A model generated the notes under the pieces. It was given only the letters and a program-made list of their open reading frames with translations, was not told the origin of the DNA and ran no database searches. This document shows positions 1 through 20,656 of a DNA stretch of 32,000 nucleotides, piece after piece. The stretch lies in contig CP104013.1 of NCBI GenBank assembly GCA_025839675.1, positions 540,001 to 572,000 of the forward strand, read 5' to 3'. The position numbers and the translations under genes are program-made. Position 1 is the stretch's first letter, and every line of letters begins with the position of its first letter. Origin of the DNA: Candidatus Lokiarchaeum ossiferum. Its GTDB lineage: Archaea; Asgardarchaeota; Lokiarchaeia; Sigyniarchaeales; Promethearchaeaceae.

Positions 1-617
1 CATCCACTAATATCCCCATTATTGTACGAGCAAAAAACCGTTCAAAATCTGGTGATTGGTTAGCAAATAAAGTGGATACTGAGGAAATATCAAAAAACGC
101 ATTAATCAATAATGAAACATGGCGTGATTTTATAAGATATTCAAGGAGTAAAGGAAATCAAGACAAGAATATACCCCTAGTTGGATATATCAAAAATTAT
201 GTGCCAATTCCTTATGTGAAATTAAAATCATCTAATTCATCAGTTCGGGTTTTAAAGTTGAAGTTTATTTCTCAATTCGTTGAGCAAACCGAAATGGAAG
301 AGTATGAATCTTTCATATACTTAATTTTCAAGGGAACTGATCAGAAAGGGACAAATTTACTATATGCTCATGCAAGTGCCTTGCTTTCTTTCACAAAAAA
401 AGGGGATGCTCTCACAAATTCTGAAGAAAACAATATCTTTGATCTTCTTATTTTAAGTGCGGCACTCGGTGATGAAAAAAGAAGTATTGGTCTTTCTGGA
501 TTAGAAAGATTATTTGTTTATCCTTATACGGATGTAAGCTTCCGGATATATGGTCCTGCAATATTCTTATATGGATTAGAGGCGATAACTTATGCAAAAA
601 GAAATGAATACGAATAA
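1..617 (+). CDS. hypothetical protein, 5-prime partial (runs off left window edge); first visible gene of a three-gene co-directional cluster
   Basis: Frame 3 is open from nt 3 (..STNIPIIVRAKNRSKSGDWLANK..) through the GTG listed at 72 to TAA at 615-617. The ORF-track start at 72 is therefore probably not the true start. The 3-prime end overlaps the next ORF (ATG 592) by 26 nt. No motif recognised. Confidence 0.6.
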   Translation, partial: STNIPIIVRAKNRSKSGDWLANKVDTEEISKNALINNETWRDFIRYSRSKGNQDKNIPLVGYIKNYVPIPYVKLKSSNSSVRVLKLKFISQFVEQTEMEEYESFIYLIFKGTDQKGTNLLYAHASALLSFTKKGDALTNSEENNIFDLLILSAALGDEKRSIGLSGLERLFVYPYTDVSFRIYGPAIFLYGLEAITYAKRNEYE

Positions 618-3600
618 AAATCCTATTCCAATTCCATTGTTATTTGGAGAAGCATACGAATTAGGTAATTATATGGGAATGCTTTCAGTTGTAGAAAGTA
701 TTAAGAATAAAAAGATGCTCTCGTTAAAAGCAAATGGAGATGTCTTTAATCCCATTGAAATTGACGTAGAATGCATTCAAGATTTTAGTATCCAATTTGA
801 GAGAATGTATGGAATAAATTTTATTGAACTAAAAGAGATCTTTGCTCGACTAAGACCTTTAGGAGAAACAATTTCAATTGAAGATCAACTTTTTCGATTT
901 AACTCGGATTTACATGAATTTGGAAAGACAATTGTTCACAGATCAGTTAAAAGTCGTAGTAATTTCGTCAAAGTATCCCAATCTGAAATAGAGATATTGA
1001 TTAAAGAATTAACAAATGAAATTAATGGAGTAAATTTTGTATTAGAAATTATTTCCGGTTTTTTTGATGGTCAATCGTTTGTTGAATGGTGTGAATTGCA
1101 ATTTCATGATGATTTTAACATTTTAATTGAAATGAATCTTTATGATGAGCAAAATCCAGAGAATCACGCAAAAAAACCAGATCTAATGGTAGTTCAAAAC
1201 AAAAAAGTGGTTTTAATCGGCGATATTAAATCATATTTTCCATTCATTAGACAAAATCGAACAAATCGGTTAAAAGATGCCTTAAATCAAATTCCGGTCG
1301 AAGGATTAAATAGTGAAATGTTAAAAGATTCATCATTTGTTCCTGAAGCCCTGTATTTGAATGATTTTGTAAAACGATATAATCTTTTGACCCGGTATTT
1401 TAAAATGATGATGTATGTTGAGATCATTTATCAAAATAGTGATGAACTCTTTCAACAGAATCCTTTATTTAGTATTGTTGTGCTTCCTGGAAAATCTGTA
1501 TTATTCCATTTCCAAAATTATTCCGATTTTGAAGAAAAACGCGAAATCCTCTTGAAAACAATTCCGTTTAAGATCAAAGATCCAAATTCTTGTGATTATG
1601 ATATAAAAGAAAAGATACTTAATGAGCATCAAGTTGATTTGGAATATGATTTATTAACAGGAGATAGATATATCGAACCAAATAATGAGAAAGGACAGTA
1701 TCTAATACGAGAAAGATACTATGATAGACCAGAAGACCTAACGATTCCCTTAGGTAAAATCCCCGTTTTTTCAGCAGCGGAAGAAATAAAAACAGCAATA
1801 GAACCTCCTATTGCTAAAGGATGGAAAGGTACACCTGTGTTAAATATTCAAACACTACATTTGAAGAAAATAATTAAAAAGTTAACACAGGAAAACTCAA
1901 AGTTCCACTGTATTATTGATGGATCAGACCAAGGAACAGGTAAAAATTTCTCGTTTGCTAAATATATCAAGTATCTTGATAATGAGGATATAGAACAATC
2001 TATTTTAATGGTCTGTCCTAGAAAAGACACGCTAAATGAAACGATTATTTCAATTTGCAATAATCTAGGTATTGAAGCACCTCACTTAGATGATTATGGA
2101 AATATTCAAGATTCAGAATTTAACCAAGGTAAGGTAAAAATTCGATTAATTCGTAGTGAATTTGGCCAACAAATCGTTTTCAACCAGAGAGGATGGATAA
2201 ACCAGAAATTTACTTACGGAGGGGAAGGCGCTACAAGTAAATTAAATAATTTGATAAAAACACCTAAATCTGGAATTGAAATCACATTTCTAACCGCTCA
2301 AACTTTACCCTTCTATTTTCGGTCCCATAAGCAACAGAAACTCCCCCTCCAACATTATAAAAAATTTTATCAAAGATTTGATTTAATCGTCTTTGATGAA
2401 CTTACCAATTCTCCTCCTTTAGTCAGAGAAGTGTTAATTGATTTAATTAATGGATATAAGCAAATCCAAACAAGAATTCCTAATATCATTCCAAAGATGC
2501 TAGTCTTGGATGCATCTATTACAAGTCCAGATTTATTTATTCAACAATTCAAACCTTTAATTTCTGCCGATTCAAAATTTTCAACGTTTTCGGAATATAT
2601 TCAAAGCTATGAAGAAAATCCAATTGAAGATGTTTTTGAAGAAGTTTTCATCAAACTTGATTATTTCAGGTATCAATTGAATCAATCTTTAATATATGGT
2701 TATTCTTCAATTGGGTGGCAAGATGACTATGTATCTATGCCGTTTGAAGAGATAAAAAACCAAATTCAAGAACAAATAACAATAATTCAAAAAAAATATT
2801 GGCCAAATTTCCCTGATTTCGATACATTACTACAACATGGGGAAGTGATGTTCTTTATTGATAACAAGTCTCTAATTGAAGAATTTAATGATTGGATTAT
2901 TGAATTGGGATATGATTGTGGAATTTCAATAGCTGAACAAAAAGAGAGAGCATTTTATGATTCAAAGAATATAATTGGGACAAATTCACTTGCTTTTGGG
3001 ACCAATTTCCCTTCCAAAAAATTAATGATCATAATACCTCCCTATCAAGGGACAGACTATTTCAAGTATCGACAAAATATCGAATTACTCCGACAGGTAA
3101 CCAAACGAATGCGAGGTTCTGATGAGAATGTTGACCGAATGGTAAGCTTTTTAGTTTTTCCTACTAAAGAGAACAATATAGATTTATCTCAGTCAGTATC
3201 GATTAATTTCTATAGAATAAGAAACAGCATCCGGGAATTCCTTTATCAGAAGAAATACCATCAGCTTCCATCATTTTCCTCATATCTGAATAATATTCCA
3301 AGCATAAATCCGAATTACGATACAAAATTAAGGAATTCTTCTATTTATACTCCCAAGGTTCCTTCATTTGGAATGAAGGATAAGAATCAAATAAGTTTAG
3401 AATTCTTTTTAGGAACCATTTTCCCTAAATTACGTGTTATTTTTTTAAAGTGGGGATTTCGCTGTCGAACGTCTTTTAAAATTGGCTTTAATAATGATAA
3501 ATATATTGGGCTACCTTTATCTAATTTCATCTGCTATACATTAGATAACCAGGATTTCTCACGTACTTTTCAAATCGAAGTCTATGCATCTAAAGCTCTT

Positions 3601-4212
3601 TCTGATTTGTCTAAATTGAAAAAATATTTGGCAAAAAATACTGCGGAAGTCAGAAATGATTTAGCGTTTGTATATAGAATGATGCAATGGCATAATCAAC
3701 ATGAAAAACAACCAAGTAAGGCTGCTTATAACATAATTGATAGAGAGATTAAAAATATTGAACAATCTGAAACAGATGGCAAAAAATGTCTAATATTATT
3801 TGCGCATTTCATCCAAAACCTATTCAATGTGAATTCGTTGCCGCTGTCTGGAACTGCATATTTACTCACATTGAACATTGCCGAAAAAACAAGTAATACT
3901 TTTGGTAATAATCTAAATATTTATCAGCAGATAAGCTATCAGAACAAGGAATATGTAAGTCAATTGTTTAAAATGACATCTCCTTTGAAATCATTATATT
4001 TTGGTGCAGGGAATTACTTTGAGCAACCTGTCTTAGTTAACATTGAGAAGAAAGGATTAACGACCGTTGGATACTTATGTCATTATCCAAATTTTGCTCA
4101 TTTTGATTTTTCCCAACCAAATTATCAATTATTGAAGTATTGCCTATTAAAAGAATTATACCGGGAGAACTATGTATATCTTCCAAATTTATTAAAAGGA
4201 TCTACTTTATAG
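592..4212 (+). CDS. PD-(D/E)xK nuclease-like N-terminal domain fused to a P-loop / SF2-helicase-like ATPase (1206 aa), family not recognised
   Basis: Uninterrupted 1206-aa ORF with AGAGG about 10 nt upstream of ATG 592. Nuclease-type signature 'KKPDLMVVQNKKVVLIGDIKSY' (P-D at nt 1177-1182, D-I-K at 1222-1230). P-loop 'DGSDQGTGKNFS' (nt 1933-1947). Walker B/motif II-like 'DLIVFDELTNS' (D-E at 2395-2400). Motif III-like 'MLVLDASIT'. A possible motif VI-like 'TKRMRGSDEN' lies further downstream. Confidence 0.75.
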   Translation: MQKEMNTNKNPIPIPLLFGEAYELGNYMGMLSVVESIKNKKMLSLKANGDVFNPIEIDVECIQDFSIQFERMYGINFIELKEIFARLRPLGETISIEDQLFRFNSDLHEFGKTIVHRSVKSRSNFVKVSQSEIEILIKELTNEINGVNFVLEIISGFFDGQSFVEWCELQFHDDFNILIEMNLYDEQNPENHAKKPDLMVVQNKKVVLIGDIKSYFPFIRQNRTNRLKDALNQIPVEGLNSEMLKDSSFVPEALYLNDFVKRYNLLTRYFKMMMYVEIIYQNSDELFQQNPLFSIVVLPGKSVLFHFQNYSDFEEKREILLKTIPFKIKDPNSCDYDIKEKILNEHQVDLEYDLLTGDRYIEPNNEKGQYLIRERYYDRPEDLTIPLGKIPVFSAAEEIKTAIEPPIAKGWKGTPVLNIQTLHLKKIIKKLTQENSKFHCIIDGSDQGTGKNFSFAKYIKYLDNEDIEQSILMVCPRKDTLNETIISICNNLGIEAPHLDDYGNIQDSEFNQGKVKIRLIRSEFGQQIVFNQRGWINQKFTYGGEGATSKLNNLIKTPKSGIEITFLTAQTLPFYFRSHKQQKLPLQHYKKFYQRFDLIVFDELTNSPPLVREVLIDLINGYKQIQTRIPNIIPKMLVLDASITSPDLFIQQFKPLISADSKFSTFSEYIQSYEENPIEDVFEEVFIKLDYFRYQLNQSLIYGYSSIGWQDDYVSMPFEEIKNQIQEQITIIQKKYWPNFPDFDTLLQHGEVMFFIDNKSLIEEFNDWIIELGYDCGISIAEQKERAFYDSKNIIGTNSLAFGTNFPSKKLMIIIPPYQGTDYFKYRQNIELLRQVTKRMRGSDENVDRMVSFLVFPTKENNIDLSQSVSINFYRIRNSIREFLYQKKYHQLPSFSSYLNNIPSINPNYDTKLRNSSIYTPKVPSFGMKDKNQISLEFFLGTIFPKLRVIFLKWGFRCRTSFKIGFNNDKYIGLPLSNFICYTLDNQDFSRTFQIEVYASKALSDLSKLKKYLAKNTAEVRNDLAFVYRMMQWHNQHEKQPSKAAYNIIDREIKNIEQSETDGKKCLILFAHFIQNLFNVNSLPLSGTAYLLTLNIAEKTSNTFGNNLNIYQQISYQNKEYVSQLFKMTSPLKSLYFGAGNYFEQPVLVNIEKKGLTTVGYLCHYPNFAHFDFSQPNYQLLKYCLLKELYRENYVYLPNLLKGSTL

Positions 4213-4218
4213 AAACTT

Positions 4219-4222
4219 GGAG
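4219..4222 (+). promoter_or_regulatory. Shine-Dalgarno-like GGAG upstream of ATG 4232
   Basis: GGAG lies 9 nt before ATG 4232, and 7 nt after the TAG stop (4210-4212) of the preceding ORF. Confidence 0.4.
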
Positions 4223-4231
4223 TTGAATTAT

Positions 4232-6163
4232 ATGAAAAATGACAAAAAAAAACAAAAATTGGAAAATAATGAAATCATAATCAGATCATGTGAATTAGAA
4301 ATCAATAATTTAGATGAATTCGAACAAATTGCTAATTTTTTTCAATCTTCAAGTTATGTTTTCCGAGGTTTATCAAATCATAAATATGAAATTACTTCAA
4401 AGTATGATCGTGCACGATTTAATACTGCAAAGTTAGATGCAACAAGAGCAACACCATATATTCTACAACATATTAAAAAATTGGTTCTAAACTTTAAAAA
4501 TATATTAGATGACGCAACGAATTCTTATTTAATTAATGATAAAATCAAGAAATTTTTAAAAGCATTAAATTCTTCTACAACAGATATATCTGATTCAGAG
4601 AAAAATCTTGCTTTACTTTGTTTACTTCAACATTACGGTTGTTCTACTCCTTTAGTTGATTTCACACGAAATATCAATATCGCCTTATATTTTGCTTGTT
4701 CTGATAAAATAAATGAAAATGGATGTATTTGGGTAGTAATGCCGTCTCGGCTTCTTTGGTCTTCAGGTCATCAAATGGTCACAGATACATGGGAAGAAAG
4801 TAATTCTCGTTTTTTTTCATTTAAAGATATTGCAAATTTAATATTCTTAGAGAATTCAAATTACCTTCATCGTCAAATTGCTTTAATAGATTTTAATCAA
4901 TTTTGCATTAACTATAATTTACCATCTTTTCCGAGAATTGAAAATCAAGAAGGAGTTTTTGGATTTGGACGAGCTGATGATAAATCTTTTTGGGAACAAT
5001 TTCAATCACATTCAATTTTTACTGCATTTGATACTGATAATAAAGAGGAAATTATGCAAATCCTTAATTCTCAACAAGAAAATCCGATTTTAATTGCGAA
5101 ACTAATCTTAACTACAGAATTTAAGAGAAATTGGTGGGAAACAAATAAAGAAAAATATAAAAAATATTGTAGTGTATTCTTATTCCCTGATCAACAAGGA
5201 ATTTTTATTGAAACAGATCTTCAAACGAAATTTTCATTTAGTTATATGGATCGAATCATTTCTGATAAAAGAAAGTATAAAAGATTACTTCAATCTATTT
5301 ATGGGAAAGATTTTACAGATAGAATTTTGAATTATAATATTAGGATAAAATCTGAAAATATCATATCAACTCTAAATAAATATTATAGAAATGATCAGAA
5401 AAGATGTATGAAATGTAAAGAATATTATAATCGATTAAATATAATTGAAAAACGGGATTTTTCACAACGCAATATGGATTTTCCAGCATGGTTAGGAAAT
5501 CTTGATTATACTTTGGAAAAAGGAAAACCTTATCGAAAGAACATTATGATTATTGGAGAAAGTGTTACATCAAAATTCAAAAATAAAAAAATGAAATCAG
5601 GTAATAATTTATCTAATAAGCGAATAAATAATATATGTTTTGAATTAGGAACCATTACTAAAGATTTCTCAGAATCGAATGATCCCGAAGACTTGATCTC
5701 TATTTCCGTCTTCTGGGCGAAAATCCAAGAAATGTTTCAAATCCATTCTCCTGAATTTCTAAATAATTTTTATCTCACAGATGTGGGGAAATGTGATTGT
5801 AATAAGAATCATTATATGTTATTTACATGCGGTATGAATTATCTGCTAAAAGAAATTAAATTTATCCATCCAAAGATTATTTTAATTATGGGAAGAAGAG
5901 CACAAAGGCTTTTTCTTTCCCTATTAAGTTTTGATTCACAGGTAAAATCAATCAAATATGATAATAAAAATTTACCCGCTCTATCTTATTTTAAACCAAA
6001 TATGAAAAAACCTGTGAAAGGTGAATTTAGCTATTTGAAAAATCTTGAAAATCCAATTCATTTTCTTTGCGTCCCACATACTTCATCTGCGAATAACAAA
6101 TTTAAAGATTGGAATCAAATTGGCGATTTCATCAGACAACAATATAGTTTTAATTTTCATTAA
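4232..6163 (+). CDS. FRG-domain protein with C-terminal uracil-DNA-glycosylase-superfamily (family 4/5-like) domain
   Basis: The ORF is open from TTG 4217. ATG 4232 sits 9 nt after GGAG (4219-4222) and is preferred as the start. FRG hallmarks: 'YVFRGLSNHKYE', 'LLQHYGCSTPLVDFTRNINIALYFAC', 'PRIENQEGVFGF'. C-terminal UDG-like pattern: CxxC 'RCMKCKEY', motif-A-like 'IMIIGESVT' (G-E-S at nt 5555-5563), 'LTDVGKCDC', 'LKEIKFIHPKIILIMGRRA', and motif-B-like 'LCVPHTSSANN' (nt 6073-6087). Confidence 0.8.
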   Translation: MKNDKKKQKLENNEIIIRSCELEINNLDEFEQIANFFQSSSYVFRGLSNHKYEITSKYDRARFNTAKLDATRATPYILQHIKKLVLNFKNILDDATNSYLINDKIKKFLKALNSSTTDISDSEKNLALLCLLQHYGCSTPLVDFTRNINIALYFACSDKINENGCIWVVMPSRLLWSSGHQMVTDTWEESNSRFFSFKDIANLIFLENSNYLHRQIALIDFNQFCINYNLPSFPRIENQEGVFGFGRADDKSFWEQFQSHSIFTAFDTDNKEEIMQILNSQQENPILIAKLILTTEFKRNWWETNKEKYKKYCSVFLFPDQQGIFIETDLQTKFSFSYMDRIISDKRKYKRLLQSIYGKDFTDRILNYNIRIKSENIISTLNKYYRNDQKRCMKCKEYYNRLNIIEKRDFSQRNMDFPAWLGNLDYTLEKGKPYRKNIMIIGESVTSKFKNKKMKSGNNLSNKRINNICFELGTITKDFSESNDPEDLISISVFWAKIQEMFQIHSPEFLNNFYLTDVGKCDCNKNHYMLFTCGMNYLLKEIKFIHPKIILIMGRRAQRLFLSLLSFDSQVKSIKYDNKNLPALSYFKPNMKKPVKGEFSYLKNLENPIHFLCVPHTSSANNKFKDWNQIGDFIRQQYSFNFH

Positions 6164-6228: not shown

Positions 6229-7293
6229 TTAGTAAAGATTAACAATTTTTTCATCTAATATGTCAATATTAGCATCTTGTGTAAATTTTGTAGAACTTTT
6301 ATTCAATATATGCTTTACAGAAGCATTAGCTTCATTACATACAATCAATAAGAGATCTGGTTTTTTTTTTAGTCTTTCTTCAAAATTTTTTAGATATTCA
6401 ATATTAGATTTTCTGATTCCTGTAGATCTAATACCACAATACAATGAAAGAAGTGCACTTCCAAATTCTGCACAAAATTCTTCTTTAGCTTTTACAAGAA
6501 TTCCATTTCTTTCAAGAATTTCTTGTTTTTTGCTCTCATCATAATTTGCTTCAATAATTTTTTTTTCATATTTTGCTTTACCCCAATCACGTCCTCTTCT
6601 ATCTTTATGAGTCAAACTATGGATTAATTCATGGAAAAAATCTCGATAATACTGATAAGTCATACCCTCGTAAGAATTTATATGTTTTATCAGGATTTCA
6701 TCAATATTTTTCTCATAATCGTATCTATATCTAGGGATTCCTTGGGAAATATTAATTATTTTTGGGATGTTTTGCATCTGAGTAATAATATCTGTCGCTT
6801 TCTTTACTATTCTGAATTTTGGTCTGAGAAGGGGATTTACTTGATCAATATTCCAGACTTCAAACAACTTGATATCGTATTCAATAGGTTCTTTCCATGG
6901 ATGCTGCTCTTCTTTTGGGAGTTTATTGAATTTCTCCATTTGTTTGTAATAATGGTAATTTCTTATACTTCCTGCTATAAATGTAGGTTGCTCATACGAA
7001 TTTATACAATATCCTACTTTTTGAACGGCATCCCGAGTTATCCATTGCCTAGTCTTAAATCTCTTTTCTTGCATTGAGAGTTCACAAATTCCCTGATTGA
7101 ATATGGAATATGGAATTGAGGGAGTATAATAATTGGAATGATAGAGGGATATTTCTTTATTTGGTTGAATTTGAACAGTGTTTTCATCATCTTCAAAAAT
7201 TATATAATCTGAACTTTTTAAAGTTTCAAAAATCTTCTTAGAATTAGTTCTTAGAAATTTTGTTAATGAGTTCCGATTTTTTATAATGGTCAT
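6229..7293 (-). CDS. ardC: ArdC-like anti-restriction protein (ssDNA-binding N-domain + zincin HExxH metalloprotease domain)
   Basis: 354-aa ORF. 'RFKTRQWITRDAVQKVGYCINSYEQPTFIA' resembles the ArdC/DUF1738 N-domain core (WxTxxQA..G..V..GE). 'YYRDFFHELIHSLTHKDRRGRDWG' resembles the ArdC metalloprotease signature (HELxHxTGHxxRLxRD). Convergent with the FRG gene and divergent from the NERD gene. Confidence 0.7.
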   Translation of the reverse strand: MTIIKNRNSLTKFLRTNSKKIFETLKSSDYIIFEDDENTVQIQPNKEISLYHSNYYTPSIPYSIFNQGICELSMQEKRFKTRQWITRDAVQKVGYCINSYEQPTFIAGSIRNYHYYKQMEKFNKLPKEEQHPWKEPIEYDIKLFEVWNIDQVNPLLRPKFRIVKKATDIITQMQNIPKIINISQGIPRYRYDYEKNIDEILIKHINSYEGMTYQYYRDFFHELIHSLTHKDRRGRDWGKAKYEKKIIEANYDESKKQEILERNGILVKAKEEFCAEFGSALLSLYCGIRSTGIRKSNIEYLKNFEERLKKKPDLLLIVCNEANASVKHILNKSSTKFTQDANIDILDEKIVNLY

Positions 7294-7516: not shown

Positions 7517-10500
7517 ATGGTCAAAGTCTTCTCAGAAATTGGATCAAATAAAATTAGTAAACAACATAAGAAAATTATCAGATGGATGGAACAATCATCC
7601 GAATTTAAGGATGCTGTTGTATTTTTAGAATTTCGATTTCATGGATTTGGATCTCGAGATGTGGATATACTTGTTTTACTAAATGATCGGATTCATTTGA
7701 TTGAATTGAAAGGACACACATTTACAGATATTCCAATGAATGGGAAGTGGCAATTTTATGATCATAAAACTCATCAAAAAAAAGAATACCCTCCTGAGGG
7801 GAGGAGAAATCAAGAAACGCCATATCAACAAGCGATTAATACTGCAAATTCATTAAAGAAATGGATTCAAAATCATTGTAATGAGCTAACTGGTGAGCTC
7901 GCTGATAGCATAAACATTCAAAACTTCTTGAAATCTGAAGAAGAATTTGATATATTTCCAATTGTTTTCATTAATGATAATAAATTTTTGGACAAAAAGA
8001 AAATACAAGAACATCCTTGGTGTAAAATTTGTGTTGGGACTGCTCAATTGAAGAAGAAATTAAAAAGAAAATATGATACAAGTGTGAAACTAGACTCTAT
8101 CTTTTTTGAAGAAATGGCAGATATGTTCAATATTTCTGATCAAAAAAAATCCAAAAAGGGTAGAATTAATCAAACTCTAATAAAAATTCTCAGATATATG
8201 AAAAAGAATAACCCGAAATGGAAAGATCAAGAAATAATTAGGGATACTGTGTTTGAATCTGGTGAATGTCGTAAAGCAGAAGTAAGAAAAGCAATCAAAC
8301 GGGGAAAAAAAGAAAATATTATATTCCAATCGAGTGAAGGCTTGATATTGAATGAACTGTTTAGTAAACTAATTAATCTTCAAAAATCTTCAGAAAGTGC
8401 TTATAAAGAATGGGAACATATTACTTTGCTATCAATATACCAGAGAAATGGCCCTGAACTTTTCAAACTCTACGTAGATCATATTTATGGAAATCCAGTG
8501 GATTTAACTGCACAAGATCAGATGATAAAATCAAACCAAATTTTATCTTCTATCCAAATTATCCCTGGTAATCTTTTATATTATCTTTTTAGTGAAGAAA
8601 TTCAATATAATTCCCCATCTCCTTCAGGTTTTTTCCGATCAGGAGGTATAATTCACTGTGATATCCAAGATCAAAACTACGCTCCGTTCATCGATAAAAC
8701 AGGATTTGAAATGAGTCAACTATTGGCACAAAAATTACGCTCTGGTAAAATAGTAGGAATCGTTGGTGCAGCTGCATCAGGAAAGTCTACATTAACTCGT
8801 CTTATTGGGTTCCAATTGTTAGAAATGCAAAAATCGGTTATTTATTTCACACCTTCTGATTTTAATGATGAAATTGTTCATCGTATTATAGAATATGAAG
8901 GAAACGCCGAAAAAGACGAAAATTCCGAAATATACATAATTTGTGAAAATATTCACTTGTTTTCTGATGTTCAAGCCCAAAATTTGGTTAAGATTATATC
9001 AAAAGCCCATTCTTCTCGTTTTCTTGTTACAAGTCGATATATTGGTGACACCTTTTTGGAAAAAATTCCTACAAAAATCAAAGATAAGAATAGGATAGAC
9101 ATTATTGATTTAGATGATGAGGCACAAATCTTGCAACGATATGAAGGATTAACCAGAACTTTTCTTCAATATAAGTTTTCACAGATTACAGGAAAACAGA
9201 TAGATCAAGTTGTCAAATACATTCTTAAAAATTCCACTAAGGTTGTTTCACTTATTCAAATTGAATTACTTTCAATTGTAGATGTTAAAAATATTAAGGA
9301 ATTGACGAATAGATGGCTCTCTCCTAGTTTTCATAACCAATATTTTGAATCTACTTTAGAAAAATATGTAGAATCAAAGATCTCAACACTTATAGATGAA
9401 AATAGTAATAAAGAAGAAGAAATTAGAACCTTATTATATTGCATTGTAGTTTTTGCATCCCTTGAGATCCCTCTAAGACAAGATTTGCTTGTCACAATCA
9501 GTCAAATTAATCCTGAGAGTATCTATGAATATTTTACACAATGGGAATCTTTGAATGAATTCCAACTAAATGAATATGCAGATATATGCCTTCATCCGGT
9601 ATTAGCGCAAAAGATCTTAGACATTCTACCAAAAATTTCAGAAAATTGGAACTTTTTAGAAAGTAGTTTAATGAAATTACATGCTAAAACACCGGGATTA
9701 TCAATAAGTGATAAAGTCCGTCAAATTATTGTGGAAGAAGATCCCACCTTTTTAGGACAAATTCTCGGGAGTCAAGGAGAACGTTCTCCATTCTTAGATT
9801 TTCGTTCTATTGATATTAAACGTCTTGCCTTCTATTTTGATACCATTTCTTTTGAGGAATTTGTCGAAATTATTAGAATTGTTCGGTATTATAACCCATA
9901 TTGGTCTCAATTGCGATGGAATGAGTTATTTGAGTTATTGACCATCCCAAATATAATTGAAATGATATTAGAATGTGAGTCGATTCAATCTCTATTAAGT
10001 TTCTTAAGAATACTAGACGAATCCAGATGGCCTGGTTTTTGGGAAATAATTGACTCCTTATCGGTTGATTTTCTTATCGATCTATTTGATGAGGAGTTCG
10101 ATGATGCAGATCGATCATTACGACAACTCAGACAGTGGGGATATCCTAAAATCAATTATCTCGAATACCAAATTGTATTTGATGCGGTATTTAGAATGAT
10201 AGAAAATCAAAGAAATAGACAATATTGGAGAATTCCCTTTGTAATCACTGAACCTGCTTTTTCAACCATTCAAAATATGGATGTAGATTCATTAATTCAA
10301 AATAAACTTAAAGCGGATTGGTTGAGCTTTACAAAATTTATTGAATTCATTGATACTAACGCTGCACGTCTCCATTGTGATAACAATCTCCGCGGAAAAA
10401 TGATCAACAATGTTTTATCCGACAATCTTCAGAGATATGACATTGATATGTATTGCACGGCATTAAGGTTGATAAAAAGCACCGGTTCTGATCAAAATTC

Positions 10501-12208
10501 TGAGGTAAAAGAAATATTAGAAAATACAGATTATAACACCTTGCGTGAGAATTTCTTACAGTTGGACGCAAGTTGGCTTAAATTTTATATTTCCCTAACA
10601 ATTAAATTCGAGATCCCTGAAATAGTCGATTTTCTGCATGGATTCTCTTTGCAAGACATCATCCAAATTTGGAATAATCCAAGAAATGAGGAAGAAGGGC
10701 AGAATTACTTGGATGAATTTTTGGTAAAATTACATGAAGTTCAATGGCCATATTTATCTGAGTTTATAGAATCTTTTGGACTGGATTATTATTCTCAAAG
10801 ATTAGCTGCAGAAAACATTACAAAAAAACCTGAAGAATTCTATGATTCACGTCTTCTGTGGTTTCTTTTAACACATGAATGGCCATCAAAAAATCTTTTT
10901 ATCGACCATTTTGATTTTATGACATTTGTACAAAATGAGAATGCCCATGCAGCTATCCATTTGTTAGAATTAATTGCACCTATTAATCTTTCAAATTTCA
11001 TTAACTTAGTAAAAGAGCTTTTTTTAAAGGTATTCTATGAAGAGAGGCATTTTGATTTACATTATGTAATTAAATATTGTATCGATGAAAAGATCCCATG
11101 GACAGAATGGGTTGATATTCCCTATATTATTAATGAAACAGAACAGGATACTCGTGAATCCAAAAGATTAATTGAAATCTTAAAGGAATCCGGATGGGAA
11201 CTCCCAGAACAAGTTAATCTTCTCCTTAAGCAACAAGATTCAAAGAAAAAACAAGACCATTTAAATCGGTTAAGTTCTATTTGGAAAGCCAATTATTATT
11301 TGGAGAATGGTCAGCAAGAAAAAGGTATAGAAATATATAAAAATACCATCAATGAAAGCAATATGAAGGGAAATATAGATAAAGCCATTAGAATAATTGA
11401 TGGATTAAAAAGAATCGACTCAAAAATTAAAGCAAATCTCGCTAATCTCATCTCAATTGAACTTTTCCAATCGGCTCATATTAAGGTAGAAGATCAATTC
11501 CATGATGTAGGACATTTATTGAAACGCTTAATTGATAGTGGACATTCACAAATTCCTGAAATTCTTTATGAAATTTTCATTAGAATGTCTCCAAAAAATA
11601 CAAATAAATTAGTGGAAATCATCTTGAGATATTGTTCATTAGAGCAATATTATGAAAATCTATGGCATTTATTATGGAAACATCAGAAATATGAATACTT
11701 GAATGGTTTGACGGATAAATTTGATGGGATAACTGCAAAAAATCAAAATGTAATAGAACCGAAACTTTTCATCGAATTGTTGGATAATTGGTTTCTTTGG
11801 GAAATGTATCTCCGGATTTGTATTTACGTTAATGAAGATTCTTCCCAAAAAGAACAATCACTTTTAGACAGTCTTTTCTCGGATAAGCTATCCATCGAAA
11901 GACTTTTGGGACTAATTCATATCGAAAAACGGACAAAATCAAGTATCATTCAAAGATTATTTACGTTAGATCAATCGACTTTGTATGGAATCATATCTCG
12001 TTCCTCTCCGACATCTTTTATTCGATTTCTACAATTGATGCAGAGTAATTGCCCATATTCTAGTTATGCTGAATTTATTCATCGAATTGAAAACGAGAAA
12101 TGGGAAAACCTCTTTGAGAATCTCGATGATGAGATGAAAATGAGCGTCAAGATACTATTTATGAGTGTTGGTGTTTCAATTTTTGATAGTTTGGAAATCT
12201 ATGATTAA
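7517..12208 (+). CDS. NERD nuclease-domain / P-loop NTPase / long alpha-helical repeat protein (1563 aa; STAND/Avs-like tripartite layout)
   Basis: NERD-type pattern 'SRDVDILVLLNDRIHLIELKGHTFTDIPMNGKWQFY....ETPYQQAINTANSLKKWI' (nt ~7650-7870). Walker A 'GIVGAAASGKSTLTRLIG' (nt ~8755-8810). Walker B-like 'EIYIICENIHLF'. About 1000 aa of helical sequence follow, with recurring [LI]xx[LI]xxxxW[PGE] units. Confidence 0.75.
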   Translation: MVKVFSEIGSNKISKQHKKIIRWMEQSSEFKDAVVFLEFRFHGFGSRDVDILVLLNDRIHLIELKGHTFTDIPMNGKWQFYDHKTHQKKEYPPEGRRNQETPYQQAINTANSLKKWIQNHCNELTGELADSINIQNFLKSEEEFDIFPIVFINDNKFLDKKKIQEHPWCKICVGTAQLKKKLKRKYDTSVKLDSIFFEEMADMFNISDQKKSKKGRINQTLIKILRYMKKNNPKWKDQEIIRDTVFESGECRKAEVRKAIKRGKKENIIFQSSEGLILNELFSKLINLQKSSESAYKEWEHITLLSIYQRNGPELFKLYVDHIYGNPVDLTAQDQMIKSNQILSSIQIIPGNLLYYLFSEEIQYNSPSPSGFFRSGGIIHCDIQDQNYAPFIDKTGFEMSQLLAQKLRSGKIVGIVGAAASGKSTLTRLIGFQLLEMQKSVIYFTPSDFNDEIVHRIIEYEGNAEKDENSEIYIICENIHLFSDVQAQNLVKIISKAHSSRFLVTSRYIGDTFLEKIPTKIKDKNRIDIIDLDDEAQILQRYEGLTRTFLQYKFSQITGKQIDQVVKYILKNSTKVVSLIQIELLSIVDVKNIKELTNRWLSPSFHNQYFESTLEKYVESKISTLIDENSNKEEEIRTLLYCIVVFASLEIPLRQDLLVTISQINPESIYEYFTQWESLNEFQLNEYADICLHPVLAQKILDILPKISENWNFLESSLMKLHAKTPGLSISDKVRQIIVEEDPTFLGQILGSQGERSPFLDFRSIDIKRLAFYFDTISFEEFVEIIRIVRYYNPYWSQLRWNELFELLTIPNIIEMILECESIQSLLSFLRILDESRWPGFWEIIDSLSVDFLIDLFDEEFDDADRSLRQLRQWGYPKINYLEYQIVFDAVFRMIENQRNRQYWRIPFVITEPAFSTIQNMDVDSLIQNKLKADWLSFTKFIEFIDTNAARLHCDNNLRGKMINNVLSDNLQRYDIDMYCTALRLIKSTGSDQNSEVKEILENTDYNTLRENFLQLDASWLKFYISLTIKFEIPEIVDFLHGFSLQDIIQIWNNPRNEEEGQNYLDEFLVKLHEVQWPYLSEFIESFGLDYYSQRLAAENITKKPEEFYDSRLLWFLLTHEWPSKNLFIDHFDFMTFVQNENAHAAIHLLELIAPINLSNFINLVKELFLKVFYEERHFDLHYVIKYCIDEKIPWTEWVDIPYIINETEQDTRESKRLIEILKESGWELPEQVNLLLKQQDSKKKQDHLNRLSSIWKANYYLENGQQEKGIEIYKNTINESNMKGNIDKAIRIIDGLKRIDSKIKANLANLISIELFQSAHIKVEDQFHDVGHLLKRLIDSGHSQIPEILYEIFIRMSPKNTNKLVEIILRYCSLEQYYENLWHLLWKHQKYEYLNGLTDKFDGITAKNQNVIEPKLFIELLDNWFLWEMYLRICIYVNEDSSQKEQSLLDSLFSDKLSIERLLGLIHIEKRTKSSIIQRLFTLDQSTLYGIISRSSPTSFIRFLQLMQSNCPYSSYAEFIHRIENEKWENLFENLDDEMKMSVKILFMSVGVSIFDSLEIYD

Positions 12209-12688: not shown

Positions 12689-13537
12689 ATGGGGCATTAT
12701 CTTCGTCAAAAAGATTTAGAGTATTTATTTTCTTCAAAGATTACTGTATCCTCTATTGTTGAAGATTTAGATTTACTAGATATTTCTAATTCTGTAGAAG
12801 ACTTCCACGAACAAATGAAAACTAATAATTTTGATGTTTTTGGAGTTAAAAAAGATGGAAAAAATATTGGATATGTTAATTTGGTGGATATTCAAGACCA
12901 ATTAGAGAAAGAACCAGAAGAAAGGGATGTTATCGAAAATATTTATAAGGAATTTAAAATCGGAGAGCTGATATCTTCTCATACTCCAATTTTGAAAACC
13001 ATCCTTCTAATGAAAGAAAAAAAGCGTTTATTTATTCTAGAAAATGAAAAAATCTCTGGCATTATAACTAAAGCAGATTTGCAAAAGATCCCTGTCCGAG
13101 TTGTCCTTTTTGGATATATTAGTATCTTTGAACATTTCCTCAATACATTAATTAATGAAAAAGCACCTGAAATTAATTTATCTGGAATTATTCCAGAAGA
13201 AAAGATACAAGAAGCAAATAGACTTCTTGAACAAAAAAAAATAAATAAAGAAGAAATCGATTTAATTGGTTGTTTGACTTTATCTTCTAAAGCTAAAATT
13301 CTCCATAAGGGAATAGAAGGTAATACTTGTGAGACAATATTCAATATTTCTAAATCTAAACTTAGCAAAATTTGTTCCCATGCAGATAAGATTCGAAATA
13401 GTATATATCATTCTCAAAAAACTATTAGTTTGAATATCAAGGACAAGATTATGGATAATCTCCTCGAAATGCAAAAAATTTTGGATAATCAACCATTATT
13501 TTTTGATAATTGGCCGACTAAGAGTCTTCCAAATTAA
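12689..13537 (+). CDS. CBS-pair domain protein with C-terminal HEPN-like (R-N-x3-H) helical domain; candidate ligand-gated RNase
   Basis: 282-aa ORF flanked by 240 bp and 535 bp of non-coding DNA. Two CBS-like units: 'ITVSSIVEDLDLLDISNSVEDFHEQMKTNNFDVFGVKKDGKNIGYVNLVDI' and 'KIGELISSHTPILKTILLMKEKKRLFILENEKISGIITKADLQK'. The C-terminal helical part contains 'HADKIRNSIYHSQK' (R-N-S-I-Y-H at nt 13394-13411), which matches the HEPN Rx4-6H motif with the typical polar residue after the Arg. Confidence 0.65.
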   Translation: MGHYLRQKDLEYLFSSKITVSSIVEDLDLLDISNSVEDFHEQMKTNNFDVFGVKKDGKNIGYVNLVDIQDQLEKEPEERDVIENIYKEFKIGELISSHTPILKTILLMKEKKRLFILENEKISGIITKADLQKIPVRVVLFGYISIFEHFLNTLINEKAPEINLSGIIPEEKIQEANRLLEQKKINKEEIDLIGCLTLSSKAKILHKGIEGNTCETIFNISKSKLSKICSHADKIRNSIYHSQKTISLNIKDKIMDNLLEMQKILDNQPLFFDNWPTKSLPN

Positions 13538-16952: not shown

Positions 16953-16958
16953 AGTTAG

Positions 16959-18803
16959 ATGGCATCACAAGCAAAATTATTACGAAATATTACCACTAAT
17001 GGAGGACTATTTACCGAAAATATTTTACTGAAATTACGGGATCGTCCCAATTCTAAGAATATTGGCAAAATAACTTATTTTTATTTTCCAGAAGAGATAG
17101 AAGAGATTCAAAAAACTGGAAATCCACCACAAACTCTCGATTCTCTTGAGATAAAGCAAAAACGGGAAAAGCTGAAATCCTTACAATCTTCTATTTTTAA
17201 TTGGGGACAACGTAAGTGGGAAGAAACATATCCTGATTTGGAATTAAATAAATTGGAAGATCCAGACATAGAAACAAAATGGTTGCTTCCTTTATTAGAA
17301 CAGATCGGTTATGAACTTGAGCCTTTTGACCGATCTTCTGATGATGGGACTGATACAGGGGTGTTAGGTGATTTTCAAATCAAATATCAAACAACAAATC
17401 CATCTATCCAATTGTTTTTTCATTTTGTTTGCCCTAATGATGATTTAGATAAAAAAATAAAAACAAATCCCAAACAACTTTCACATCATGATATTTGCCA
17501 GCAATATGTGAACTATCATCCAGATGTGAAATGGCTTATTCTTTCTAATGGTACTCAATTACGTCTCCTCTCTACATATTATTACTCATATTCTAAAGGT
17601 TATTTGGAGTTCAATCTAAAAGATATTTTTGGAGGAGATCTTCAGGAATTTTTAGTATTTTTTAATATATTGCATCCTTCTCGGTTTATAAAAATCGAAC
17701 CGGATAAACATTCACTTATTGAAGATTTTCAAGCAGAATCACAGGAAGAAGGTGTAAAAGTAGGAAATAATCTTCGAGATAATGTGCATAATGCAATCGA
17801 AACTCTAGGGAATCAGCTTATCCAACAAAATAACGAATTATATACAAATATTAAAAATGAAAAGATCAATTTACAAGAGTATTACGCCGAATTACTGCGA
17901 ATCATATACCGGATCATTTTCATTTTATATGCGGAGCAAAGAAATATGTTGCCCGGATCCGGAACGTTATATTTCAAAAATTTTTCCTTATCTTCCTTTC
18001 GGATGCTGGCAGAAAAACCAATTAAAAACGATTCCCAATCGGATTTATGGCAAAAACTTTTTGTTACTTTTCAACTAGTGAGAGATGGCAATAGTTTTAT
18101 GGGAATACCTTGTTTTAATGGAATCTTATTTGATAATACCAATTTGTCTATTTTATTTCCAGATGGTAAAGAAAAAGGTATTATATATTCAGTTTCAAAT
18201 GATATTACATTAGGGATCATCCGACTACTTACTACAGCCCAATTTGGAAACATTCGCCAACGCATCAATTTTATAGAAATTTCAGAGGAAGAAATTGGAG
18301 CTATTTATGAATCATTGCTTGAATATCGCCCAATATTTGATAAAAGAGGAAATTTTAATTTGGAATACGAATCTAATGAAAGGAAAGGTACCGGAACCTA
18401 TTATACTCCAAAAAATATAATTGATATCTTTATTAAAAATACGATAGAACCAAAAATTCGATTTATATTAGATGAACATGCTGGAAATCCACAGATACAG
18501 GAAAATGAAATAAGAAAATTAAAAATATGTGATCCTGCTTGTGGTAGTGGCACATTTCTTCTTTCAGTATTAGATTCTATGGGTGAACATTTAGCCAAAA
18601 TTCGTAGTCCAAATTCCTATCCAACTGAAATAGAATTAAGAAATGCACGACGTGAAATCTTACAACATTGCATTTATGGTGTCGATAAAAATCAACTTGC
18701 AGTGGAATTGTGTAAAATTTCTCTTTGGTTACGGGCATGTGTTAAGGATAAACCTTTGAATTTTCTCGATAATCATATTAAATGTGGAGATTCACTACTA
18801 GGT
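16959..18803 (+). repeat. Copy 1 of a ~1.85-kb diverged direct repeat (shared N-terminal half of the two methyltransferase genes)
   Basis: Aligns codon-for-codon with 20657-22503, from 'KLLRNITT.GGLFTENILL' to 'DNHIKCG.SL.G'. Long identical peptide runs are present (e.g. YYAELLRIIYRIIFILYAEQRNMLPGSGTLYFKNFSLSSFRM) despite many synonymous nucleotide differences. Confidence 0.85.
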
Positions 18804-20642: not shown

Positions 20643-20645
20643 GAG
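20641..20645 (+). promoter_or_regulatory. Shine-Dalgarno AGGAG for the second methyltransferase gene
   Basis: AGGAG overlaps the TAG stop of paralogue 1 (20640-20642) and lies 11 nt before ATG 20657. Confidence 0.5.
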
Positions 20646-20656
20646 TTAACAAATCA

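What the first reader, a model, noticed from the sequence alone, without database searches (positions are those of the whole stretch)
1..6163. Uncharacterised three-gene cluster: unknown protein + PD-(D/E)xK-helicase fusion + FRG/UDG-like protein
Three co-directional ORFs show a 26-nt overlap and then a 19-nt gap, which suggests an operon. It sits beside an anti-restriction gene and other defence genes. The middle protein has a nuclease signature (PD...DIK) ahead of a helicase-like P-loop core. This resembles single-chain nuclease-helicase defence proteins, by analogy only. The last protein pairs an FRG domain with a glycosylase fold. I do not recognise this trio as any named defence system. 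A helicase/nuclease combined with a possible base-excision enzyme would be a plausible system against modified phage DNA. The operon may continue upstream of the window.
Basis: partly seen in the sequence, partly recalled or inferred. Interest (0 to 1): 0.7.

Follow-up and report, generated by a model that had tools for sequence, protein, structure and literature searches.

The report
Archaeal Argonaute-like protein plus nuclease-helicase pair
The "three-gene cluster" is a conserved, unannotated archaeal gene pair (a large protein with a predicted Argonaute-like fold followed by a nuclease-helicase), probably a new DNA-targeting defence system, and the third gene (FRG + uracil-glycosylase-like) is a local add-on.

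Summary
The ORFs, spacings and domain calls are real, but the unit is drawn wrongly. The window is from Candidatus Lokiarchaeum ossiferum B35, an Asgard archaeon.

- **ORF 72..617** is not a 181-aa protein. It is the last 205 codons of a 1051-aa gene, "A", cut by the window edge.
- **The conserved unit is A plus B.** A is followed at once by the 1206-aa nuclease-helicase "B" in all nine lineages found (Lokiarchaeia, Odinarchaeota, Archaeoglobus, Thermococcus/Pyrococcus and unnamed metagenome lineages).
- **C is not part of it.** The FRG+UDG gene "C" follows B only in this strain.
- **B** has a PD…GD[IL]K nuclease motif and SF2 helicase motifs I, Ia, III, V and VI in every lineage; motif II keeps its glutamate (DE or EE).
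- **A** matches no Pfam, PADLOC, PHROG or PDB sequence. Its AlphaFold model (pTM 0.78) best matches a full-length Argonaute (RsAgo), then NurA and RNase H-fold nucleases.
- **Neighbours** are mostly defence genes (pAgo, McrBC, Lamassu-like, RM/DISARM-like).

Best reading (about 50%): a sensor/guide-binding Argonaute-like protein recruits a translocating nuclease, as in DdmDE or the pPIWI-RE triads. It shows no detectable sequence similarity to solved DdmD/DdmE chains or to Pfam/PADLOC Argonaute and pPIWI-RE models, the domain and gene order differ, and it is found only in archaea. C is probably a separate FRG-type defence gene that is co-transcribed here.

The parts
1..617 (+). 3' end (last 205 codons, frame 3, bases 3-617) of gene A. 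The full gene is 1051 aa (NEF87_000470). The window holds the end of the RNase H/PIWI-like domain and the conserved C-terminal motifs GDEK (468-479) and RLFVYPYTD (507-533).
   Evidence: The frame is open to the window edge. The identical contig L001 gives the full gene. 100% identity to the Ca. L. ossiferum protein. AF2 model pLDDT 75.5, pTM 0.78. Foldseek best hits are RsAgo, TM1739 and NurA.
592..4212 (+). Gene B, 1206 aa. It has an N-terminal PD-(D/E)xK nuclease, an SF2 helicase/translocase and a conserved C-terminal region of about 350 aa with unknown fold. It overlaps A by 26 nt.
   Evidence: Pfam ResIII. Foldseek gives SF2 helicases, with Type ISP LlaGI on top. A homologue lies directly downstream of A in all nine lineages.
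1078..1233 (+). PD-(D/E)xK nuclease core of B: FVEWC (E165), KKPDL (P196, D197), IGDIKS (D211, K213).
   Evidence: P196, D197, G210, D211 and K213 are invariant in 7 divergent homologues and conserved in all 9 aligned. The predicted alpha-beta-beta-beta-alpha order fits the fold.
1924..3117 (+). SF2 helicase core of B: motif I SDQGTGKN, Ia PRKD, II FDELTNS, III LDAS, V IGTNSLAFGT, VI RQVTKRMRG.
   Evidence: Motif residues are invariant across the family.
4232..6163 (+). Gene C, 643 aa (NEF87_000472). It has an N-terminal FRG domain (FRG motif at 4361-4369) and a C-terminal family-4-like UDG domain: CMKC 5405-5416, IIGES 5549-5563, GKCDC 5786-5800, FTCG 5822-5833, PHTSS 6074-6088. It is a lineage-specific add-on and not part of the conserved module.
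   Evidence: Pfam FRG 6.7e-16 and UDG 4.3e-7. PADLOC PDC-S15 1e-18. TIGR00758 UDG_fam4 scores 22 bits, far below its cut-off. Weak alignment to a PDB chain named uracil-DNA glycosylase, 4zbx. C is absent after B in the other lineages.
6229..7293 (-). Context only: a convergent ArdC-like gene (ssDNA-binding N-domain plus zincin metallopeptidase, HELIH).
   Evidence: Pfam MPTase-PolyVal 1e-7 and ArdcN 8e-4. PHROG anti-restriction protein 5.6e-20.

Best explanation
The real functional unit is a two-gene archaeal module, A then B, probably a defence system.

- **A** (1051 aa; only its tail is in the window) is a very divergent protein. Its predicted structure resembles a full-length, probably catalytically inactive Argonaute: an RNase H/PIWI-type C-terminal domain preceded by a Rossmann-like, MID-like region.
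- **B** (592..4212) fuses a PD-(D/E)xK nuclease to an SF2 translocase.
- **Proposed mechanism.** A recognises foreign nucleic acid, most likely through a bound short guide held in a pocket. The candidate pocket residues are the invariant H546/Y550/Q604 and the conserved C-terminal GDEK…RLFxxPYxD segment. A then recruits or licenses B, which translocates along the target and cuts it. This is the logic shown for DdmE/DdmD and proposed for the pPIWI-RE/DinG/REase triads.
- **C** (4232..6163) is an FRG (ART-superfamily, predicted NADase-type effector) plus family-4-like UDG fusion. It is a separate gene of the FRG type that PADLOC lists as the candidate defence system PDC-S15. It sits behind B in this strain and is probably co-transcribed.

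**Shown:** gene structure, strict A-B linkage, motif invariance, fold matches and island context.
**Inferred:** guide binding, recruitment of B by A, DNA as the target, and the defence phenotype.
For: 1. **Linkage.** In all nine lineages an A homologue (727-1121 aa) is followed by a B homologue (941-1239 aa) with an overlap of up to 29 nt or a gap of at most 5 nt.
   - Own lineage; L005-7; L009; Odinarchaeota L010+L008.
   - L011; L012; Archaeoglobus-type L013-15; L016/17; Thermococcus chitonophagus L018.
   - The downstream proteins not already found by the search (L011-L014, L016-L018) match the B profile at 1e-59 to 1e-258.
2. **Co-divergence.** The two proteins diverge and change size together: A/B identity is 56/61, 29/38, 28/32 and 27/31%, and short A goes with short B.
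3. **B active sites.** The nuclease and ATPase active-site residues of B are invariant.
4. **A fold.** The A model is good (pTM 0.78).
   - Against 350,542 PDB chains, the only matches with E below 0.01 are RsAgo (772-807 aligned columns, covering its whole length, E 8e-4, prob 1.0) and the NurA/TM1739 RNase H-fold nucleases. QDE-2 MID-PIWI follows at E 0.14.
   - The viral library gives only weak RNase H domain matches.
5. **Context.** Neighbours are a canonical pAgo and a Schlafen-like protein (L010), McrBC and a type IV-like helicase (L011), LmuB/mad3-like ATPases (L012), a LmuA-like STAND protein (L005), an integrase and RHH (L014/15), and an RM/DISARM-like cluster, a NERD protein, an FRG protein and an ArdC-like protein here.
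6. **Rarity.** The family is rare and patchy: 13 cluster representatives among 1.84 billion proteins, every named member archaeal and annotated 'hypothetical'.
7. **Precedent.** DdmE (an inactive pAgo) plus DdmD (a helicase-nuclease) is experimentally established (10.1101/2024.05.10.593530). The pPIWI-RE triad model is in PMC3702460.
Against: - There is no sequence-level support. Pfam Piwi and pPIWI_RE models, PADLOC pAgo models, hhalign against a neighbouring pAgo and PDB profile searches are all negative.
- NurA-type nucleases match the C-terminal domain almost as well.
- No DEDX tetrad can be placed.
- The MID-pocket assignment (H546/Y550/Q604) comes only from secondary-structure order and conservation.
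- The B model is poor (pLDDT 54), and no A-B contact was modelled.
- In Thermococcales and L016 the pair lies beside housekeeping genes (aIF5B), not in an obvious island.
- No experiment exists.
Confidence: 0.5

Rival explanations
1. A is a NurA-like RNase H-fold nuclease with large extra domains and does not bind guides. A and B together form a helicase-nuclease machine that resects or degrades DNA ends, comparable to HerA-NurA or AddAB. It would serve DNA repair, or guide-independent destruction of linear or foreign DNA.
For: - NurA (2ygk, E 7e-3) and the TM1739 RNase H-fold nuclease (1zup, E 3e-3, TMt 0.39) are among the top Foldseek hits. The NurA/HerA-like TdpAB also appears, weakly.
- The long forms of A keep acidic residues on predicted RNase H strands (INIEG, FDEFF) and a near-invariant GDEK.
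- In Thermococcales the pair lies next to housekeeping genes.
Against: - The best and longest matches are to a whole Argonaute, not to NurA alone.
- The acidic residues on strands 1 and 3 are lost in the short forms, while pairing with B is retained.
- No HerA-type ATPase is present.
- The distribution is far too sparse and patchy for a repair function.
- Most contexts are defence islands.
Confidence: 0.2
2. A, B and C form one three-component system in which the helicase-nuclease cooperates with a glycosylase-type enzyme to attack phage DNA that carries modified or uracil bases.
For: - In this strain C starts 19 nt after B, with a GGAG Shine-Dalgarno-like motif. This fits co-transcription.
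- C has a UDG-superfamily domain that keeps GE and H motif remnants and four cysteines placed as I recall for family 4.
- The arrangement recurs in four contigs of the same lineage.
Against: - C is absent downstream of B in every other lineage that can be read.
- FRG proteins are modelled in PADLOC as single-gene candidates (PDC-S15).
- The four contigs that carry C are the same strain or lineage (B product 100% identical) and are not independent observations.
Confidence: 0.07
3. A-B is a replication, maintenance or transfer module of an integrated mobile element or provirus and not a host defence system.
For: - Phage-type HNH and SNase-like endonuclease genes lie directly upstream, and an ArdC-like anti-restriction gene lies downstream.
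- A small HNH gene also precedes A in L005.
- An integrase and RHH genes follow B in L014/15.
Against: - A and B have no relatives in 2.9 million viral contigs, 50,697 phage records or 72,556 plasmids, and no PHROG family.
- The two HNH genes are not orthologous.
- No polymerase, primase, capsid or conjugation genes accompany the pair.
- Defence genes are typical cargo of such elements.
Confidence: 0.08

Closest known systems
DdmDE (Vibrio cholerae plasmid-elimination system: DdmE long-C pAgo + DdmD helicase-nuclease)
   Same: - A two-gene module.
- One partner has an Argonaute-type fold and no DEDX tetrad. The other is a protein of about 1200 aa that combines an SF2 helicase with a PD-(D/E)xK nuclease.
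- The likely logic is the same: a sensor recruits a translocating nuclease.
   Different: - The PDB sequence profile searches, which should include the solved DdmD and DdmE chains if those entries are in the copy, found nothing.
- The nuclease is N-terminal in B and C-terminal in DdmD.
- The Argonaute-like gene comes first here.
- A is about 1050 aa and is not recognised by any pAgo model.
- The family is exclusively archaeal.
pPIWI-RE triad (REase, DinG helicase, pPIWI-RE; Burroughs et al. 2013, PMC3702460)
   Same: A divergent PIWI-type protein is obligately linked, through overlapping genes, to a restriction-endonuclease-fold nuclease and an SF2 helicase. The triad was predicted to be a guide- or hybrid-directed restriction system.
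   Different: - Here the nuclease and helicase are fused in one protein and lie downstream of the PIWI-like gene.
- I saw no conserved cysteine cluster of the DinG Fe-S type in the B alignments (by eye).
- Pfam models, which as I recall include the pPIWI_RE families, do not match.
- The triad is bacterial and this pair is archaeal.
Long-B pAgo systems (e.g. RsAgo; pAgo-nuclease BPAN systems)
   Same: RsAgo is the best structural match. As I recall, RsAgo is a long-B pAgo with a catalytically inactive PIWI, and this class relies on an associated nuclease effector.
   Different: There is no sequence homology. A has about 300 extra residues. The effector here carries its own helicase motor.
Type ISP restriction enzymes (LlaGI) and Cas3
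   Same: These are single polypeptides that join a nuclease to an SF2 translocase. In LlaGI the PD-(D/E)xK nuclease is N-terminal, by my recollection. LlaGI is the top Foldseek hit for B.
   Different: B has no methyltransferase or target-recognition domain. It depends instead on a separate partner, A. The match is weak (E 6e-5, TM 0.11-0.13) and the model is of low confidence.
PDC-S15 / FRG-domain candidate defence proteins, and family-4 uracil-DNA glycosylases (for gene C)
   Same: C matches the FRG domain strongly. Its C-terminal part belongs to the UDG superfamily and has a family-4-like motif layout.
   Different: - The matching PDC-S15 profiles are 254-422 positions long and cover only the N-terminal FRG part of C (to residue 256 at most), so none covers the UDG part.
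- No close relative of the fusion was found in the metagenome or plasmid collections searched; the broader protein-homologue search was not run on C.
- The UDG motifs are altered (GESVT for GE[AG]PG, PHTSS for HPS), so glycosylase activity is uncertain.

Membership tests
DdmDE | The partner is recognisable as a prokaryotic Argonaute (MID + PIWI; long-C clade). | tested here: inconclusive
   Fold level: RsAgo is the top Foldseek hit over about 770 columns. Sequence level: negative against Pfam and the PADLOC pAgo models and by hhalign against a pAgo.
DdmDE | The effector has an N-terminal SF2 helicase and a C-terminal PD-(D/E)xK nuclease, and is homologous to DdmD. | tested here: not met
   In B the nuclease (aa 163-214) precedes the helicase (aa 445-842). 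PDB profile searches, which should cover DdmD chains, find nothing even at E up to 10.
DdmDE | DNA-guided plasmid elimination that needs the ATPase and the nuclease. | not testable with these tools
   This needs in vivo plasmid-loss assays and guide sequencing.
pPIWI-RE triad | A PIWI module of the RE type (Pfam pPIWI_RE models). | tested here: not met
   No Pfam family matches A or the 12 relatives scanned, even at E up to 10.
pPIWI-RE triad | A three-gene operon in the order REase, DinG helicase, PIWI; bacterial. | tested here: not met
   There are two genes in the order PIWI-like then REase-helicase fusion. I saw no conserved DinG-type cysteine cluster. All named hosts are archaea.
Argonaute (long pAgo) | A DEDX catalytic tetrad in PIWI (for active members). 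| tested here: not met
   No conserved D/E/D/X set exists. The candidate strand-1 E782 and the FDEFF motif are lost in the short forms, and strand 4 reads R-A-K-N where I recall R-D-G in active PIWI domains. This fits an inactive PIWI, but the positions are inferred without a structural alignment.
Argonaute (long pAgo) | A MID domain with a binding pocket for the guide 5' end. | tested here: inconclusive
   A beta-alpha region (aa 525-655 of the model) carries the invariant H546, Y550 and Q604 directly before the RNase H-like domain. No structural superposition was available.
NurA-HerA | A NurA RNase H-fold nuclease paired with a HerA hexameric ATPase. | tested here: not met
   NurA and TM1739 match the C-terminal domain. 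The partner is a monomer-type SF2 helicase, and no gene with a HerA-type annotation appears among the called genes next to the pair in any locus.
Known nuclease-helicase defence systems in PADLOC 2.0 (Hachiman, Nhi, Druantia, Zorya, DISARM, Dpd, etc.) | A match to the system's HMMs. | tested here: not met
   No PADLOC model matches at E up to 0.1 for B (with two homologues) or A (with two homologues).
PDC-S15 (FRG-domain candidate system), for gene C | An FRG domain protein acting as a stand-alone gene. | tested here: met
   Pfam FRG 6.7e-16 and PADLOC PDC-S15 1.1e-18. The FRG motif is at aa 44-46. There is no conserved partner, because A-B occurs without C elsewhere. No defence activity has been tested for this protein.
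Family-4 uracil-DNA glycosylase, for the C-terminal domain of C | UDG fold, with the GE[AG]PG and HPS motifs and four Fe-S cysteines (motif definitions from memory). | tested here: inconclusive
   Pfam UDG scores 30.5 bits against a cut-off of 24.3. TIGR00758 scores only 22 bits against 125. The motifs are altered (IIGES-VT, PHTSS). The cysteines CxxC (392/395), C521/C523 and C533 are present. Activity is not testable here.

The most novel reading that the evidence does not exclude
A-B defines a previously unrecognised, deep-branching, archaea-only clade of Argonaute-fold proteins. It occurs in Asgard archaea, Archaeoglobi and Thermococci, and sequence methods cannot detect it. It works with a dedicated nuclease-helicase effector. 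That would make it an independent archaeal counterpart of the bacterial DdmDE and pPIWI-RE systems and a new branch in the history of the PIWI/Argonaute superfamily near the eukaryotic stem.
Probability: 0.45. Interest if true: 0.85.

Novelty: new variant of a known kind. Interest (0 to 1): 0.72.

Why it matters
- **A blind spot in Argonaute surveys.** Argonautes are central to eukaryotic RNA silencing, and published analyses favour an archaeal, possibly Asgard, origin for eukaryotic Argonautes. A family with an Argonaute-type fold that every current Argonaute profile misses would show that sequence-based surveys of archaeal Argonautes are incomplete. This family is present in the cultured Asgard archaeon Ca. 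L. ossiferum.
- **Convergent design.** It would also show that the 'sensor Argonaute plus helicase-nuclease' design of DdmDE arose, or diverged beyond recognition, in archaea as well.
- **An experimental route.** The pair also occurs in cultured Thermococcus and Pyrococcus species. As far as I know these are relatives of genetically tractable strains, so the idea can be tested directly.
- **Possible tool.** The system is compact, with two genes, and its members come from hosts ranging from mesophiles to hyperthermophiles (host growth temperatures from my own knowledge). If it proves programmable it could be useful as a tool.
- **Gene C.** The FRG plus UDG-like fusion had no close relative in the collections searched. 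It deserves its own test as a sensor-effector protein.

Tried and rejected
**Searches that found nothing**
- Pfam, NCBIfam, PADLOC and PHROGs on A and B gave only ResIII in B.
- PDB sequence searches with profiles of A (11 sequences) and B (4 and 7 sequences) gave nothing meaningful, even at E 5-10.
- hhalign of the A family against the canonical pAgo encoded next to the Odinarchaeota copy showed no similarity.
- Pattern-based scans of GTDB genomes (2), JGI metagenomes (2) and IMG/VR (2) with A, B and C found nothing. Loci from JGI samples were recovered by exact look-up, so these negatives probably reflect limits of the patterns or the collections. I do not count them as evidence of absence.
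- tblastn of A, B and C against plasmids, and of A and B against phages, gave no match.
- Literature searches for an Asgard or archaeal Argonaute plus helicase-nuclease system found no description of this pair.

- The word-indexed homologue search found only 4 B relatives and 1 A relative. The exhaustive HMMER search was needed to reveal the wider A family.
- The B model is low quality (pLDDT 54). Only generic SF2 matches can be trusted, and the C-terminal 350 aa remain unassigned.

**Ideas considered and rejected**
- A conserved HNH-A-B trio. Small HNH genes precede A in two lineages, but they belong to different HNH families, are barely similar, and are absent elsewhere.
- A tRNA-flanked integrated element. 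No tRNA gene lies in the window or the flanks.
- The bacterial promoter/terminator scan was not used, because the host is an archaeon.
Full report
**What is in the window**

Bases 1-6163 hold three co-directional reading frames: 72..617, 592..4212 and 4217..6163.
- The first two overlap by 26 nt.
- The third most likely starts at the ATG at 4232, 19 nt after the stop of the second. A GGAG lies about 9 nt upstream of that ATG.
- The finding's coordinates and spacings are therefore correct.
- G+C is about 30% throughout, rising to 0.39-0.42 at 25-30 kb.

**The first ORF is truncated**

- Frame 3 is open from base 3 to 617.
- An exact look-up of the middle protein recovered a 10.4-kb public contig (L001). 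It is identical to the window over 7276 bp and extends it 3104 bp to the left.
- On that contig the first ORF is the tail of a 1051-aa gene, here called A.
- The A product is 100% identical to NEF87_000470 of Candidatus Lokiarchaeum ossiferum, and the third product is NEF87_000472 of strain B-35. The window therefore comes from a cultured Asgard archaeon.
- Upstream of A lie two small phage-type endonuclease genes, one SNase-like (91 aa) and one HNH_3 (79 aa).

**Gene B (592..4212, 1206 aa)**

- Pfam sees only ResIII (aa 420-604, 8e-5). PADLOC, NCBIfam and PHROGs see nothing.
- Alignment with homologues shows a canonical PD-(D/E)xK set: E165, P196-D197, G210-D211-x-K213. The predicted alpha-beta-beta-beta-alpha order fits.
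- SF2 motifs follow: I (SDQG[TI]GK[NT]), Ia (PRK), II ([DE]ELTNS), III (DAS), V (IGTxSLAFG) and VI (RQVxKRxRG).
- These residues are invariant in seven homologues that share as little as 23% identity.
- The AlphaFold model is poor overall (pLDDT 54). It retrieves only generic SF2 helicases, with the Type ISP enzyme LlaGI on top.
- PDB profile searches by sequence find nothing.

**Gene C (4232..6163, 643 aa)**

- The N-terminal domain matches Pfam FRG (6.7e-16), the PADLOC candidate PDC-S15 (1e-18) and a PHROG of unknown function.
- The C-terminal domain matches Pfam UDG above the gathering score, and matches family-4 UDG models only weakly.
- By eye it keeps a CxxC, a GE motif (IIGES), the V/G-K-C motif with a further cysteine, and an H-T-S motif. 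This is the layout of Fe-S family-4 enzymes as I know them, but with altered catalytic motifs.
- The Aravind group classes FRG in the ADP-ribosyltransferase superfamily and predicts it to be a NADase-type antiviral effector (PMC9503650).

**What is conserved**

The result splits the trio.

B has very few relatives by the word-indexed search (4 in 5.8 billion). Exact look-ups of their contigs, and of relatives of A found by an exhaustive HMMER search (13 representatives in 1.84 billion), gave nine lineages. In each, an A homologue is followed directly by a B homologue:

| Lineage | A (aa) | B (aa) |
|---|---|---|
| Ca. L. ossiferum (this window) | 1051 | 1206 |
| L005-7 (A 56% and B 61% identical to the window's) | 1048 | 1207 |
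| L009 (B split or frameshifted at the contig end) | 1028 | 682 plus a further piece |
| Odinarchaeota MAG (A at the end of one contig; its tail and B on another) | at least 1004 | 1215 |
| L011 (B 31% identical, E 5e-172) | 1121 | 1239 |
| L012 (B cut by the contig end) | 917 | at least 494 |
| Archaeoglobus-type L013-15 | 926 | 1047-1052 |
| L016/17 | 789 | 1001 |
| Thermococcus chitonophagus (L018) | 727 | 941 |

- The junction ranges from a 29-nt overlap to a 5-nt gap.
- The downstream proteins in L011-L014 and L016-L018 match the B profile at 1e-59 to 1e-258. Those in L005-7, L008 and L009 were found as B homologues in the first place.
- A and B change length and diverge together.
- C follows B only in the Lokiarchaeum contigs, and these carry an identical B product.
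- No other accessory gene is conserved.
- The unit is therefore A+B. C is a local addition, probably co-transcribed here.

**What A is**

- No Pfam, PADLOC, PHROG or PDB sequence match exists for A or its relatives. This holds at permissive thresholds for Pfam and PDB.
- An AlphaFold model built from 13 family members is good (mean pLDDT 75.5, pTM 0.78).
- In a Foldseek search of 350,542 PDB chains, the only matches below E = 0.01 are these:
  - Rhodobacter sphaeroides Argonaute, in several entries: 772-807 aligned columns over its whole 755 residues, E 8e-4, probability 1.0.
  - The RNase H-fold nucleases TM1739 and NurA.
- Neurospora QDE-2 MID-PIWI follows at E 0.14.
- A viral structure library gives only weak RNase H domain matches.
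- The C-terminal 290 residues show the strand-strand-strand-helix-strand order of an RNase H fold.
- Directly before it lies a beta-alpha region that carries the family's invariant H546-x-Y-Y-Y550 and Q604. This is where an Argonaute MID pocket would sit.
- The extreme C-terminus (GDEK…RLFxxPYxD) is the best-conserved part of the protein. In DdmE, residues near the C-terminus (K674, E678) help hold the guide's 5' phosphate.
- No DEDX tetrad is conserved, so the PIWI-like domain is probably inactive.

**Context**

- Here, A-B-C is followed by an ArdC-like gene, a 1563-aa NERD-ATPase, a CBS-domain protein, and a block of a DrmD-like SNF2 gene, two DrmMI-like methyltransferases and a DruE-like helicase.
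[quoted passage not shown] It does not mention this locus in the sections I read (10.64898/2026.02.13.705702).
- Elsewhere the pair lies next to:
  - a canonical pAgo and a Schlafen-like protein (L010);
  - McrBC and a type IV-like helicase (L011);
  - LmuB/mad3-like ATPases (L012);
  - a LmuA-like STAND protein and a Csa3-like regulator (L005);
  - an integrase and RHH proteins (L014/15);
  - in Thermococcus and L016, the aIF5B gene.
- Neither protein has relatives in the viral contigs, phage records or plasmid records searched.

**Mechanism**

The best-supported reading is a defence module. A, an Argonaute-like and probably non-cleaving sensor, recognises foreign nucleic acid, plausibly through a short guide. 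It then recruits or licenses B, whose motor moves it along the DNA while its PD-(D/E)xK domain cuts.

This logic has been shown experimentally for DdmE/DdmD and was predicted for the pPIWI-RE/DinG/REase triads.

- Shown here: gene linkage, invariance of the catalytic motifs and the fold matches.
- Inferred: guide binding, the A-B interaction, the target and the phenotype.
- Main rival: A is a NurA-like nuclease and the pair is a guide-independent DNA-degrading or resection machine.

**Comparison and novelty**

The pair works like DdmDE but is not a member of that system.
- There is no detectable sequence similarity.
- The domain order in the effector is reversed.
- The gene order is reversed.
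- The host range is archaeal.

It also fails the defining tests for pPIWI-RE triads, NurA-HerA and every PADLOC-modelled nuclease-helicase system. I rate it a new variant of a known kind. All named members are annotated 'hypothetical protein', and I found no paper that describes it.

**Verdict**

- The interesting object is not the trio. It is the A-B pair, which reaches outside the window.
- Confidence that A-B is a conserved functional pair that includes an active nuclease-helicase is high, about 0.9.
- Confidence that it is a defence system is about 0.7.
- Confidence that A is Argonaute-like and acts as the sensor is about 0.5.

Noticed in passing
window 14073-30109 (+): A hybrid restriction-like block. 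It holds a DrmD-like SNF2 helicase (14073-16952), two tandem DrmMI/type IIG-like methyltransferases (16959-20642 and 20657-24757) and a 1783-aa DruE-like helicase (24758-30109). The two methyltransferases are 66% identical over their first 810 aa or so and then diverge completely, which looks like a duplication with swapped specificity domains. G+C rises to 0.39-0.42 in the DruE-like gene against about 0.30 elsewhere, which suggests foreign origin. A preprint calls this 'R-M with a putative DrmD component'.
   Followed up: partly
window 7517-12208 (+): A 1563-aa protein with an N-terminal NERD nuclease-related domain, a P-loop NTPase (weak STAND, AbiLi and KaiC-like matches) and about 1000 aa of unassigned helical sequence. 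It is possibly a STAND-type sensor.
   Followed up: no
L001 28-303 and 333-572 (immediately left of the window): Two small phage-type endonuclease genes, SNase-like (PHROG 452) and HNH_3, lie directly upstream of gene A. A different small HNH gene occupies the same position in the 56%-identical locus L005 (6516-6731). The two are barely similar, so they look like independent insertions and not a conserved component.
   Followed up: partly
L010 7099-9504 and 4056-6254: In the Odinarchaeota MAG, the A-like gene lies about 500 bp downstream of a canonical pAgo (PADLOC pAgo 1e-231) and next to a Schlafen/AlbA_2 protein. A classical Argonaute and the Argonaute-like A therefore coexist side by side.
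   Followed up: no
L018 7398-15006 (Thermococcus chitonophagus CP015193) and L016 1-5945: In T. chitonophagus the short-form A-B pair sits immediately downstream of the aIF5B gene. In L016 it follows the end of a gene with elongation-factor domain 4, probably the same gene. This suggests a shared insertion site or vertical inheritance in these archaea. An Mrr-type nuclease and a Cas6 gene lie within 10 kb in T. chitonophagus.
   Followed up: no
window 30344-31249 (+) and 12689-13537 (+): A 301-aa protein with an HSDR_N (type I restriction R-subunit N-terminal, PD-(D/E)xK-like) domain lies after the DruE-like gene. A 282-aa CBS-domain protein lies between the NERD-ATPase and the DrmD-like gene. 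The roles of both are unknown.
   Followed up: no
L009 905-4789: In one metagenomic lineage a 1294-aa protein with no detectable domain, unrelated to A, precedes the A-B pair on the same strand. It may be a lineage-specific third component.
   Followed up: no
method note: The word-indexed homologue search missed most members of both families, probably because of the AT-rich, low-complexity composition. It missed the 56%-identical A of L005 and the 31%-identical B of L011. Rarity estimates from that tool alone would be too low.
   Followed up: yes
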